A stretch of DNA of 64,000 bases from an uncultured Gammaproteobacteria bacterium (lineage in GTDB: Bacteria; Patescibacteriota; Patescibacteriia; CAYZDG01), in the NCBI GenBank assembly GCA_964536515.1, contig CAZHXI010000005.1, positions 2,178-66,177 of the forward strand, written 5' to 3'. A program made the position numbers and the translations under genes. The notes under the pieces were generated by a model. It was not told where the DNA came from, did no database searches, and saw nothing but the letters and a program-made list of their open reading frames with translations. This document shows, piece by piece, positions 41,409 to 43,802 of this stretch (its first letter is position 1; each line of letters opens with the position of its first letter).

Positions 41409-43802
41409 TCAGGTACCCTGGCCCCAGTCGTACAGCATTATCGAGAAATCCACCGAGTTCACCCTGCTGTCACGGCTGATATCAACCTTGGGGTTACGGA
41501 ATGGCGACGTGGTCTGCCAGAACGCTAGCAGGATTGAGAAGTCTACGGAGTTCACCCGGCCGTCGTTGTTGAGGTCTGATCGTAGGCCGGTCGTCGTACC
41601 TCCCGGCGTTGTGCCCGAAGCCTGCCCGGTCGAGGTCGGAGTGGGAGTTGGGGTAGGAATCGGAACTCCCCCCCCCCCCCCCCCCCCGCCCCCCCCCCCC
41701 CCCCCCCCCCCCCCCCCCCCCCCGCCGCCGTTGTTGCCTCCGCCGTTATCTGCAGCTGTGGCGGTGAATGTCCTAGAAGCCGAGGACTGCTCGGTGCCGA
41801 AGTGAACCACCAGCTTGAATAGGTAGTTGCCGGCATTGGGAACCGTGGCGCCCAGCGTAGTATTCCAATCCTCCCCGGGGTTGATGAACTTAGCGGCGGA
41901 GGCGTAGAACACGTCGTCTCCCCCGCCGCAGGCGTTGCCGGCAGAGCTGACCACGCACCACTCGTACTGGTACTCGTAGCCCGCCAGGCCCTCGTTGGTG
42001 ATGGTTACGTTAGCCGCAATGGACGGCACCTCGGTATCCGTCATTCCGTTGATTATCACCTGGGCCGGCGAGGCGCTGACCATCCAGTAGTCGTTGGTCT
42101 CAACGGTGCGGCTGGCGTCGATGCCGGTTGAGACTACAGCCTCCCATAGCCCCTGGGCTGCCCCGCTACCCACCGAGTAGGTGTACTCGTACACTCCCGT
42201 AGCGATGGCGGTCATGGGTACCGCCGAGACGACCGCGTTGCGGTCTGCGTCGTACAGGGTAACCACGGGCACAGAGTAGGCGGCGGCCGGGGTCGAGGTG
42301 CTGCTCTGCACGTAGACCTTGGTGCGGTAGGTACGGCCGGCGGCGACGCTATCTACGTTAGACATGCGCACCCTCCAGCCCTGCTCCTGGGCGACGAGCG
42401 ACGCCCTGGTGGAGACGCGTGCGTCCAGGTTGGTGGCAACCTGCTCGCCCACGCTGCCCACGGCCGTGAGGGATGACGACAGAACGTTCCACACGTCGGC
42501 GGCGGTAATGTCGTTGCCGTAGCTGGTCAGCGTCCTGGCGCCGTTCGCCCAGACAGCGCTGGCCACCGATGCCGTGCCGTAGTCAGTCAGGGTCCGGGTA
42601 GCGGCAGCCCAAACGTCGGCGGCGGTAAGGGAGCTGGTGCCGCGGGAGGAGATAGCTGCATCAATGTTCTGGGCGAACTGCAGCCCGACGGTACCCGCGC
42701 CGACGAACGTCGAGGTCGCCACGTTCCACACCTGGTCAGCCGTCAGCGAGCTGGTGCCGCGAGATGCGACGGCTACGTTCAAATTATCTACGAACTGCTT
42801 GCCCACGGTGCCCGGCCCGGTGAACGTGCTGGTGGCGACGTTCCAAACGTCGGCGGCGCTAATGTTGTTCAGCGCCTGGATGAGGGTACGGTTGGCGATG
42901 ACCTCGGCGGCAATCGAGGAGCTAGCCGAGAGCACGTCGGCGTTGGAAGCCAACGAGCCGCCGTCCGTCAGCGTCTGGTCGGTCAGTCGGCGGGTGGGAC
43001 TGGTCCACACGTCCGCTGCCAGCGTGCCGAAGCCGGTGAGCGTCCTGGCGCCGCTGCCCCAGACGGCCGTAGCTACGTCGCTGACCAGGGTGCCGAAGCT
43101 CGTCAGGGAGCGGCTCGGGTTGGCCCAAATATCTGCCACCAGCGTGCCGAAGCCGGTCAGGGTCCGGGCGGGGCTAGACCACACGTCTGCCGCGGTGATG
43201 TTGTTCAGCGCCTGGATGAGGACGCGGTTAGCTACGATGCCGGCGCCGATAGACGAGCTGGCGGACTGCACCGATCCCTCAAGCGAGGAGCTGGCGGACT
43301 GCACCGTGGCCCCGAGGGATGAGCTAGCCGAGAGCACGTCGGCATTGGTGGCCAGCGAGCCGCCGGAGGTCAGGGTTTGGTCGGTCAGGCGTCGGGTGGG
43401 GCTATCCCAAACCGCTGCGGCCACCGTCGTCGTCGAAATATCACCGCTACCGACGAGGAAGCTCTTATCCAGAGATGCCAGATCGTTACCCGCCAAGCCG
43501 CAGGTCATGGTCGCTGGCCACAGGCCCTTGCTGACCGTGCCGCTGAACGTGTACGAGTACCAGCCGGAGGCATCGACGGACATTGCCCCATCGTTCACTA
43601 CCTGCGTCCCAGAGGGGTTGAATATATCCACGATGCAGCCGGCCGTGGTTGTGGGCACGAAGTTGTCGTCGTATACGAACTCACCAATGGTAACGGCCTG
43701 GTTGAGGTCGTACCTGCTGTAGCCGGCGGCGTAGGTACCCGCGACTCCCGCGACCAAGGACGCCAGCAGGCAGCCGAGGTACAGAGCCCACGACTGCCTC
43801 AT
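41409..43802 (-). CDS. giant secreted dockerin-domain protein with ~20-aa tandem repeats, a poly-Gly and (PT)n linker
   Basis: Signal peptide; repeats VW.SP.RTLT.FGTL; the C-terminus carries a duplicated dockerin segment DLNNDGRVNSVDFSILLAFW / DISRDSRVNSVDFSIMLYDW. Confidence 0.7.
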   Translation of the reverse strand: MRQSWALYLGCLLASLVAGVAGTYAAGYSRYDLNQAVTIGEFVYDDNFVPTTTAGCIVDIFNPSGTQVVNDGAMSVDASGWYSYTFSGTVSKGLWPATMTCGLAGNDLASLDKSFLVGSGDISTTTVAAAVWDSPTRRLTDQTLTSGGSLATNADVLSASSSLGATVQSASSSLEGSVQSASSSIGAGIVANRVLIQALNNITAADVWSSPARTLTGFGTLVADIWANPSRSLTSFGTLVSDVATAVWGSGARTLTGFGTLAADVWTSPTRRLTDQTLTDGGSLASNADVLSASSSIAAEVIANRTLIQALNNISAADVWNVATSTFTGPGTVGKQFVDNLNVAVASRGTSSLTADQVWNVATSTFVGAGTVGLQFAQNIDAAISSRGTSSLTAADVWAAATRTLTDYGTASVASAVWANGARTLTSYGNDITAADVWNVLSSSLTAVGSVGEQVATNLDARVSTRASLVAQEQGWRVRMSNVDSVAAGRTYRTKVYVQSSTSTPAAAYSVPVVTLYDADRNAVVSAVPMTAIATGVYEYTYSVGSGAAQGLWEAVVSTGIDASRTVETNDYWMVSASPAQVIINGMTDTEVPSIAANVTITNEGLAGYEYQYEWCVVSSAGNACGGGDDVFYASAAKFINPGEDWNTTLGATVPNAGNYLFKLVVHFGTEQSSASRTFTATAADNGGGNNGGGGGGGGGGGGGGGGGGGGGVPIPTPTPTPTSTGQASGTTPGGTTTGLRSDLNNDGRVNSVDFSILLAFWQTTSPFRNPKVDISRDSRVNSVDFSIMLYDWGQGT
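41668..41723. repeat. homopolymeric tract C20-G-C35 (poly-Gly coding on the minus strand)
   Basis: Read directly in the sequence; it encodes a 22-Gly run immediately upstream of the dockerin module. Confidence 0.9.

What the first reader, a model, noticed from the sequence alone, without database searches (positions are those of the whole stretch)
41668..41723. 56-nt near-perfect poly-C tract (C20-G-C35) encoding a 22-Gly linker directly upstream of the dockerin module
Homopolymer tracts of this length are highly prone to slipped-strand mispairing. Any change of +/-1 or 2 nt would frameshift and remove the C-terminal dockerin (an ON/OFF switch of attachment), while +/-3 changes alter linker length. 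That makes it a candidate contingency locus controlling display of the 797-aa protein.

It is equally a classic site for sequencing or assembly error.
Basis: seen in the sequence. Interest (0 to 1): 0.6.

Follow-up and report, generated by a model that had tools for sequence, protein, structure and literature searches.

The report
Poly-C tract is probably an assembly artefact
The 56-base run of C is in this record, but an independent assembly of the same locus reads an ordinary mixed glycine-codon repeat (GGC GGC GGA) there, so the "hypermutable switch" is most likely a sequencing or assembly error inside a conserved glycine linker.

Summary
The tract is in the window as described: C20-G-C35 at 41668-41723. 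It is the only homopolymer longer than 6 in 64 kb. It lies in frame in a 797-aa dockerin protein on the minus strand.

An independent public assembly of the same locus (Logan contig SRR12487045_5374) matches the window at every base for 13,761 bases up to the tract. It then reads CCC CCG CCT CCG CCG CCT CCG..., which on the coding strand is (GGC GGC GGA)n. It differs from the window at 9 of 33 bases, all at codon third positions. The window's single G (41688) agrees with it.

The protein is the same either way. The only difference is that GGC and GGA are read as GGG, a documented Illumina error after GG and GGC motifs.

GGG makes up 16.5% of glycine codons elsewhere in the window. In 175 homologous poly-Gly linkers, two GGG codons are never adjacent.

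The real feature is a conserved poly-Gly plus Pro/Thr linker before a dockerin in a Patescibacteria surface protein, next to two cohesin-like membrane proteins. Slippage in a repeat with a 9-nt unit changes linker length, not reading frame. The ON/OFF contingency reading is therefore not supported.

The parts
41668..41723 (-). The recorded homopolymer (C20-G-C35 on the + strand, G35-C-G20 on the coding strand). It is most likely a miscalled (GGC GGC GGA)n codon repeat.
   Evidence: Searches show the tract. Searches show that Logan contig L081 reads CCCCCGCCTCCGCCGCCTCCGCCGCCTCCGCCG over window 41668-41700, with 9 differences, all at codon third positions.
41667..41729 (-). Codons of the 21-residue poly-Gly run (residues 692-712).
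   Evidence: One search gives the codon list. Homologues carry poly-Gly runs of 3-20 residues at the same place.
41580..41666 (-). Pro/Thr-rich second half of the linker (residues 713-741, VPIPTPTPTPTSTGQASGTTPGGTTTGLR).
   Evidence: Translation. Homologues have similar P/T/S-rich segments.
41436..41579 (-). Type I dockerin module (residues 742-789) with two repeated segments, DLNNDGRVNSVDFSILL and DISRDSRVNSVDFSIML.
   Evidence: PF00404 Dockerin_1, E 1.2e-7, 32.3 bits against a cut-off of 22.9. The duplicated segments are read directly from the translation.
41409..43802 (-). Gene for the 797-aa repeat-rich secreted protein. It has an N-terminal hydrophobic leader, internal repeats, a weak MG2-like Ig-like domain match, the linker and the dockerin.
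   Evidence: Searches show a family of several hundred homologues whose organism labels are mostly Patescibacteria/Paceibacteria MAGs.
40474..41400 (-). Downstream gene for a 308-aa cohesin-like protein with a C-terminal hydrophobic anchor. It is the presumed docking partner.
   Evidence: One search gives the translation. One search shows its N-terminal 124 residues are 29% identical (E 2e-8) to the cohesin region of the next gene. It has no Pfam hit of its own.
38944..40470 (-). Gene for a 508-aa cohesin-domain protein with a C-terminal hydrophobic anchor.
   Evidence: PF00963 Cohesin, 24.0 bits against a cut-off of 24.1 (borderline), at residues 40-146.

Best explanation
The poly-C/poly-G homopolymer is an error in this record, not a property of the organism's DNA.

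Shown:
- In an independent assembly, the sequence at this place is an imperfect tandem codon repeat, (GGC GGC GGA)n, ending ...GGC GGG GGA GTT.
- The window has G at every codon third position except one. The amino-acid sequence, tract length and reading frame are therefore unchanged.
- Homologues carry a poly-Gly linker at the same position.

Inferred:
- The error arose during sequencing or consensus building. Reads running in the G-rich direction through dense GGC/GGN repeats lose phase, and the third base is called as the preceding G. An assembler or polisher then kept those calls. The platform and assembler are not known.
- The repeat encodes a poly-glycine hinge of about 21 residues. With the following Pro/Thr-rich segment, it forms the flexible linker between the last beta-sandwich domain and the C-terminal type I dockerin of a secreted Patescibacteria surface protein. 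That protein presumably docks onto the two membrane-anchored cohesin-like proteins encoded immediately downstream.
- Because the real repeat unit is 3 or 9 nt, replication slippage would add or remove glycines without shifting the frame. There is no ON/OFF switch of the dockerin.
For: 1. Logan contig SRR12487045_5374 (L081) matches the window exactly over 13,761 nt up to position 41667. It then differs at 9 of the next 33 nt, at window 41673, 76, 79, 82, 85, 91, 94, 97 and 41700. All are codon third positions, and the window always has C (coding-strand G) there.
2. The window's only non-C base (G at 41688) has the same identity and position as in the Logan contig.
3. The Logan contig ends exactly where its last 30 nt lie wholly inside the period-9 repeat. 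I read this as a short-k de Bruijn graph branching in a repeat that continues. This rests on my recollection that Logan uses k=31.
4. Elsewhere in the window, glycine codons are GGC 62%, GGG 16.5%, GGT 11.6% and GGA 9.5%. The recorded tract is 17 GGG out of 19 codons. The Logan version, rich in GGC, fits the genome.
5. In 175 distinct poly-Gly runs (1,390 codons) from about 160 homologous loci, the longest G run is 5. Two GGG codons are never adjacent, against 7.8 +/- 2.4 adjacent pairs in shuffles (1 of 2000 shuffles reached 0). Some relatives use period-9 repeats such as (GGA GGC GGA)x3 (L146, L108).
6. No other homopolymer longer than 6 occurs in the 64 kb window. Only three G or C runs of 9 or more occur in the first 80 related loci, 1.3 Mb.
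7. A known error mode fits. [quoted passage not shown] Systematic errors are preceded by GG and are called as G (PMC3295828).
8. The same linker breaks other assemblies. L009 has a 10-N gap at the end of its Gly-codon run, and contigs L137 and L145 end inside theirs.
Against: - No reads could be inspected, so the error is inferred from two disagreeing assemblies, not observed.
- The Logan contig covers only 33 of the 56 nt. No independent sequence was found for the other side.
- It is not known whether the window was assembled from SRR12487045 or from a sister sample. A real allele in a co-occurring, otherwise identical strain is therefore not formally excluded.
- The published systematic-error motif is strongest for GGT to GGG. 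Here the miscalled bases would be C and A.
Confidence: 0.85

Rival explanations
1. The homopolymer is real in the strain behind this record and acts as a contingency locus. Slipped-strand mispairing in G35/G20 shifts the frame at high rate and gives a truncated protein without its dockerin. Cells would then switch between an anchored and a released form of the protein.
For: The tract is in the record and in frame. Simulated shifts of +/-1 or 2 nt end the protein 38 or 57 residues after the Gly run and delete the dockerin. A surface-display protein is the kind of gene that phase variation usually targets (general knowledge).
Against: An independent assembly with identical flanks has a non-homopolymeric repeat. 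A real allele would need about 17 synonymous changes, all to G, within 56 nt, with none in 13.7 kb of flank. No homologue has a G run longer than 5 at this linker, and adjacent GGG codons appear to be avoided. The window has no other long homopolymer, so the genome shows no sign of using such tracts. From general knowledge, tracts of 35 are well beyond those of described bacterial phase-variable genes.
Confidence: 0.07
2. The homopolymer is real but has no switching role. A short GGGGG run in the linker expanded by slippage and replaced the mixed repeat, and the population simply tolerates it because the consensus stays in frame.
For: The Logan version has a GGG GGA at the dockerin end of the repeat that could seed expansion. 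Linker length varies from 3 to 20 Gly across the family, so length is weakly constrained.
Against: Expansion would add bases, not substitute them in register. The single GGC retained in phase, at the same position as in the Logan contig, fits miscalling on an unchanged template better. A G35 tract would produce frameshifts constantly and so would carry a cost. No relative shows anything like it.
Confidence: 0.04
3. The Logan contig is the wrong one: its last 33 nt come from another organism's Gly-codon repeat joined on by the assembler, and the window is correct.
For: The last k-mers of the contig are low-complexity and could in principle be shared with other genes in the metagenome.
Against: The first three differences (window 41673, 41676, 41679) lie within 14 nt of the unique flank, so they share single 31-mers with at least 17 nt of unique sequence. 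If Logan contigs are built from unbranched k=31 unitigs, as I recall, a well-supported poly-C alternative in those reads would have ended the contig there (reasoning). Sequencing errors do not create a regular period-9 codon pattern.
Confidence: 0.03

Closest known systems
Illumina sequence-specific errors at GGC/GGN repeats, for example PE-PGRS genes of Mycobacterium (Nakamura et al. 2011, PMC3141275; Meacham et al. 2011, PMC3295828)
   Same: The template is a dense run of GGC/GGA codons in a genome of 63% G+C. Every discrepancy replaces the base after GG with G, as described for dephasing errors. The changes are substitutions, so length and frame are kept.
   Different: Here the errors reached the assembled consensus over a whole 56-nt stretch, not just individual reads. 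The direction-specific read signature could not be checked, and the sequencing platform is unknown.
Homopolymeric-tract contingency loci (phase-variable poly-G/poly-C genes of Campylobacter, Neisseria, Haemophilus, Helicobacter; general knowledge)
   Same: As recorded, this is an intragenic G/C homopolymer in a surface-protein gene, and a frameshift in it would truncate the product.
   Different: The tract is contradicted by an independent assembly and is absent from all homologues. From general knowledge, it is much longer than described tracts (about 8 to under 20 nt). It sits near the 3' end, so only the anchor module would be lost. No length variation has been shown.
Cellulosome-type cohesin-dockerin display with flexible linkers (Clostridium/Acetivibrio thermocellum and relatives; general knowledge)
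   Same: There is a C-terminal type I dockerin with two repeated segments, preceded by a flexible Gly and Pro/Thr linker. Cohesin-like proteins are encoded next to it.
   Different: The host is a Patescibacteria-type organism. The cargo is a repeat-rich protein with no recognised catalytic domain, not a glycoside hydrolase. The cohesin match is borderline (24.0 against 24.1 bits). The linker starts with a long pure poly-Gly run, which is conserved in this family.

Membership tests
Phase-variable contingency locus (simple-sequence repeat) | A repeat tract whose unit is not a multiple of 3 nt, genuinely present in the gene | tested here: not met
   It is present in the window. The independent assembly of the same locus has a period-3/9 GGC/GGA repeat instead.
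Phase-variable contingency locus (simple-sequence repeat) | Tract length varies within or between populations | not testable with these tools
   No reads are available. No second contig spans the tract.
Phase-variable contingency locus (simple-sequence repeat) | A length change switches the product on or off | tested here: met
   This was tested in silico only. Shifts of +/-1 or 2 nt in the recorded tract give stops 38 or 57 residues after the Gly run and remove the dockerin. This applies only if the homopolymer is real.
Phase-variable contingency locus (simple-sequence repeat) | Comparable tracts recur in homologues or elsewhere in the genome | tested here: not met
   The longest G run in 175 homologous linker runs is 5, and there are no adjacent GGG codons. 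The window has no other homopolymer longer than 6.
Sequence-specific sequencing or consensus error at GGC/GGN repeats | The underlying template is rich in GGC motifs | tested here: met
   The Logan contig reads (GGC GGC GGA)n on the coding strand. The flank in the window reads GGC GGA GGC AAC AAC GGC GGC.
Sequence-specific sequencing or consensus error at GGC/GGN repeats | The wrong bases equal the preceding base (G after GG), and the changes are substitutions, not indels | tested here: met
   All 9 discrepancies are C or A read as G after GG on the coding strand. The register, the frame and the one retained GGC are preserved.
Sequence-specific sequencing or consensus error at GGC/GGN repeats | Errors are confined to reads of one direction and have depressed quality | not testable with these tools
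   There is no access to reads.
Type I dockerin module | Match to Pfam Dockerin_1 above the gathering score | tested here: met
   32.3 bits against 22.9, residues 742-789.
Type I dockerin module | Two repeated calcium-binding-loop/helix segments | tested here: met
   DLNNDGRVNSVDFSILL and DISRDSRVNSVDFSIML, read from the translation. Calcium binding itself was not tested.
Cohesin-dockerin display system | A cognate cohesin-bearing anchor protein | tested here: inconclusive
   The 508-aa neighbour scores 24.0 bits on PF00963 against a cut-off of 24.1. The 308-aa neighbour has no Pfam hit, but its N-terminus resembles that region (E 2e-8). Binding was not tested.

The most novel reading that the evidence does not exclude
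Both versions exist in nature. In one subpopulation of this Patescibacteria species, the mixed Gly-codon repeat has been converted into a G35-C-G20 homopolymer. It would frameshift at very high rate and toggle the protein between a cohesin-anchored and a released form. That would be the first homopolymer contingency locus described in the candidate phyla radiation, and by far the longest such tract in a bacterial coding region.
Probability: 0.06. Interest if true: 0.65.

Novelty: not a real feature. Interest (0 to 1): 0.1.

Why it matters
If real, a 35-nt coding homopolymer would be an extreme hypermutable switch in a little-studied group of bacteria.

The evidence instead shows a consensus error, so the practical point is about data quality. 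Glycine-linker codon repeats (GGC/GGA/GGT runs) in G+C-rich metagenome-assembled genomes can be turned into false poly-G/poly-C tracts. In this family they also break contigs or leave N gaps. Scans for contingency loci in MAGs should check such tracts against reads or a second assembly.

One small biological point remains. This family's poly-Gly linkers never place two GGG codons side by side, which fits selection against slippage-prone runs.

Tried and rejected
- Exact look-up of the 797-aa protein: not on record.
- Exact look-ups of the neighbours. TsaD and the 508-aa gene gave the decisive Logan contig. TatC gave only short contigs that stop before the gene: L082, and L083 from a 98.2%-identical strain. 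The 96-aa and 295-aa products led back to the same Logan contig.
- Search for the other side of the tract. An exact scan of metagenome contigs with the right flank found nothing. The protein-based metagenome scan found only relatives at 65% identity or less. Two further protein searches, with the C-terminal 238 aa and with 91 aa ending in the Gly run, found no near-identical fragment. A cluster look-up of the 96-aa fragment found nothing.
- The genome scan found 80 homologous loci, the best 57% identical. The source species is not among them.
- Paper searches for SRR12487045 and for the JGI sample id found nothing, so sample type and platform remain unknown.
- A search on two-colour-chemistry poly-G artefacts in assemblies gave nothing specific. 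I keep that only as a possible contributing cause, from general knowledge.
- Rfam found only four tRNAs and no RNA element near the tract.
- I considered that the 94-aa and 143-aa ORFs overlapping the tract in other frames might be genes. I rejected this because they are low-complexity shadows of the 797-aa gene in a 63% G+C sequence.

Full report
**Observation.** The window reads C20 (41668-41687), G (41688), C35 (41689-41723).
- It is the only homopolymer longer than 6 in 64 kb of 63.5% G+C sequence. From base composition alone, a C run of 20 or more is expected about 1e-5 times per window.
- On the minus strand it lies in frame in a 797-aa ORF (41409..43802). That ORF has a Pfam Dockerin_1 match above the curated cut-off at residues 742-789.
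- The continuous Gly run is 21 residues (692-712), not 22. Its codons are GGC GGC, GGG x11, GGC, GGG x6, GGA.
- A 29-residue Pro/Thr-rich segment separates the Gly run from the dockerin.
- Simulated shifts of +/-1 or 2 nt end the protein 38 or 57 residues after the Gly run and remove the dockerin.

So the description of the record is correct, apart from these small points.

**Context.** The gene belongs to a large family of repeat-rich proteins. The organism labels on the hits are mostly Patescibacteria/Paceibacteria MAGs. The best relatives are about 55-57% identical.
- Immediately downstream on the same strand are two genes for proteins with an N-terminal cohesin-like region and a C-terminal hydrophobic anchor.
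  - The 508-aa protein scores 24.0 bits on Pfam Cohesin, against a cut-off of 24.1.
  - The 308-aa protein resembles that region at E 2e-8.
- TsaD, TatA and TatC flank the group.
- The inferred picture is a secreted protein that docks by its C-terminal dockerin onto membrane-anchored cohesin-like partners.

**The linker is conserved; the homopolymer is not.** Every full-length homologue I read has a poly-Gly run followed by a P/T/S-rich segment just before the dockerin.
- Across about 160 related loci I extracted 175 distinct poly-Gly runs (1,390 codons). The main run per locus is 3-20 residues long, most often 10-12.
- All four Gly codons are mixed. The longest G run is 5.
- Two GGG codons are never adjacent, against 7.8 +/- 2.4 adjacent pairs when codons are shuffled within runs (1 of 2000 shuffles reached 0).
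- Some relatives use short codon repeats such as (GGA GGC GGA)x3 (L146, L108).
- In the window itself, GGG makes up 16.5% of Gly codons outside the tract and GGC 62%. A run with 17 GGG out of 19 codons is foreign to this genome.

**Decisive evidence.** An exact look-up of the neighbouring TsaD protein returned Logan contig SRR12487045_5374, 19,765 nt, an independent assembly of a public run.
- It matches the window exactly over 13,761 nt up to position 41667.
- It then reads CCC CCG CCT CCG CCG CCT CCG CCG CCT CCG CCG and ends at window position 41700.
- On the coding strand this is ...GGC GGA GGC GGC GGA GGC GGC GGA GGC GGG GGA GTT.
- It differs from the window at 9 of 33 positions. All are codon third positions, and the window has coding-strand G at every one.
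- The single interrupting base of the window's tract (41688) has the same identity and position in both sequences.
- The contig stops exactly where its last 30 nt lie wholly inside the period-9 repeat. I read this as a short-k de Bruijn assembly branching in a repeat that continues. This rests on my recollection that Logan uses k=31.
- The two versions encode the same protein, with the same register.

**Interpretation.** Zero differences in 13.7 kb of flank, followed by 9 in 33 nt, is not a pattern that point mutation between strains produces.
- All the differences are synonymous, all go to G, and all are in register.
- This is the pattern expected if the same template was miscalled.
- Nakamura et al. 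showed that GGC motifs trigger direction-specific lagging-strand dephasing in Illumina reads. [quoted passage not shown]
- Meacham et al. found that systematic errors are preceded by GG and are called as G (PMC3295828).
- Substitution errors also explain why a supposedly hypermutable tract happens to be in frame.
- The same linker troubles other assemblies. L009 has a 10-N gap at the end of its Gly-codon run, and contigs L137 and L145 end inside theirs.
- I cannot say which platform or assembler produced the window. Loss of signal in two-colour chemistry, or an unpolished long-read consensus, could also contribute (general knowledge, not tested).

**What is really there, and how it works.** The real feature is a tandem codon repeat with a 9-nt unit. 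It encodes a poly-glycine hinge which, with the Pro/Thr segment, tethers the dockerin flexibly to the body of the protein.
- Shown: the repeat sequence for 33 nt, the conservation of the Gly linker, and the dockerin.
- Inferred: the full length of the repeat, the flexibility of the linker, and docking to the neighbouring cohesin-like proteins.
- Slippage in such a repeat changes the linker by whole glycines, probably three at a time. It cannot shift the frame.

**Rivals.**
- A real homopolymer allele in a co-occurring strain acting as a contingency locus: about 0.07.
- A real homopolymer with no switching role: about 0.04.
- An error in the Logan contig instead: about 0.03. The first discrepancies share 31-mers with at least 17 nt of unique flank, and errors do not create regular codon repeats.

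None of these can be excluded without reads.

**Limits.**
- Only 33 of the 56 nt are covered by the second assembly. All attempts to find the other side failed.
- The link between the window and SRR12487045 is inferred from sequence identity.

**Verdict.** The tract is real in the record but most probably not in the organism. Interest is low. The value lies in flagging this class of false homopolymer in MAGs.

Noticed in passing
L001-L164 (homologous loci), linker before the dockerin: In 175 distinct poly-Gly runs (1,390 codons), two GGG codons are never adjacent, so the longest G run is 5. Shuffling codons within runs gives 7.8 +/- 2.4 adjacent pairs. This looks like selection against slippage-prone homopolymers in a conserved glycine linker.
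   Followed up: partly
L009 4400-4460; L137 2239-2276; L145 1110-1130: Other assemblies of this gene family break at the same Gly-codon linker. L009 has a 10-N gap, and two contigs end inside the run.
   Followed up: partly
window 50113-53253 (+): A 1046-aa valyl-tRNA synthetase-like ORF has a complete histidine phosphatase (His_Phos_1) domain at residues 445-607, between the two parts of the class I synthetase core. This is an unusual inserted or fused domain.
   Followed up: no
window 27851-36273 (-): Three consecutive large ORFs (1325, 584 and 853 aa) have no Pfam match at E <= 0.001. They lie upstream of the TsaD/cohesin/dockerin group and may be further surface proteins.
   Followed up: no
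window 41409-43802 (-), residues about 120-470: The dockerin protein contains long internal repeats, for example TRRLTDQTLT.GGSLA.NADVLSASSS twice and recurring ...AADVW...TLT motifs. Homologues range from about 440 to 1348 aa, mainly through repeat number. These repeats probably explain why short-k assemblies of the gene are fragmented.
   Followed up: partly
window 45509-48343 (-): A 944-aa ORF with Kelch-motif matches lies next to the Tat genes.
   Followed up: no
L083 (JGI 3300045333 contig Ga0490007_026847) against window 43833-45658: A strain 98.2% identical to the window occurs in a JGI metagenome. It carries an extra 47-aa TatA-like gene call between TatC and the 61-aa TatA.
   Followed up: no
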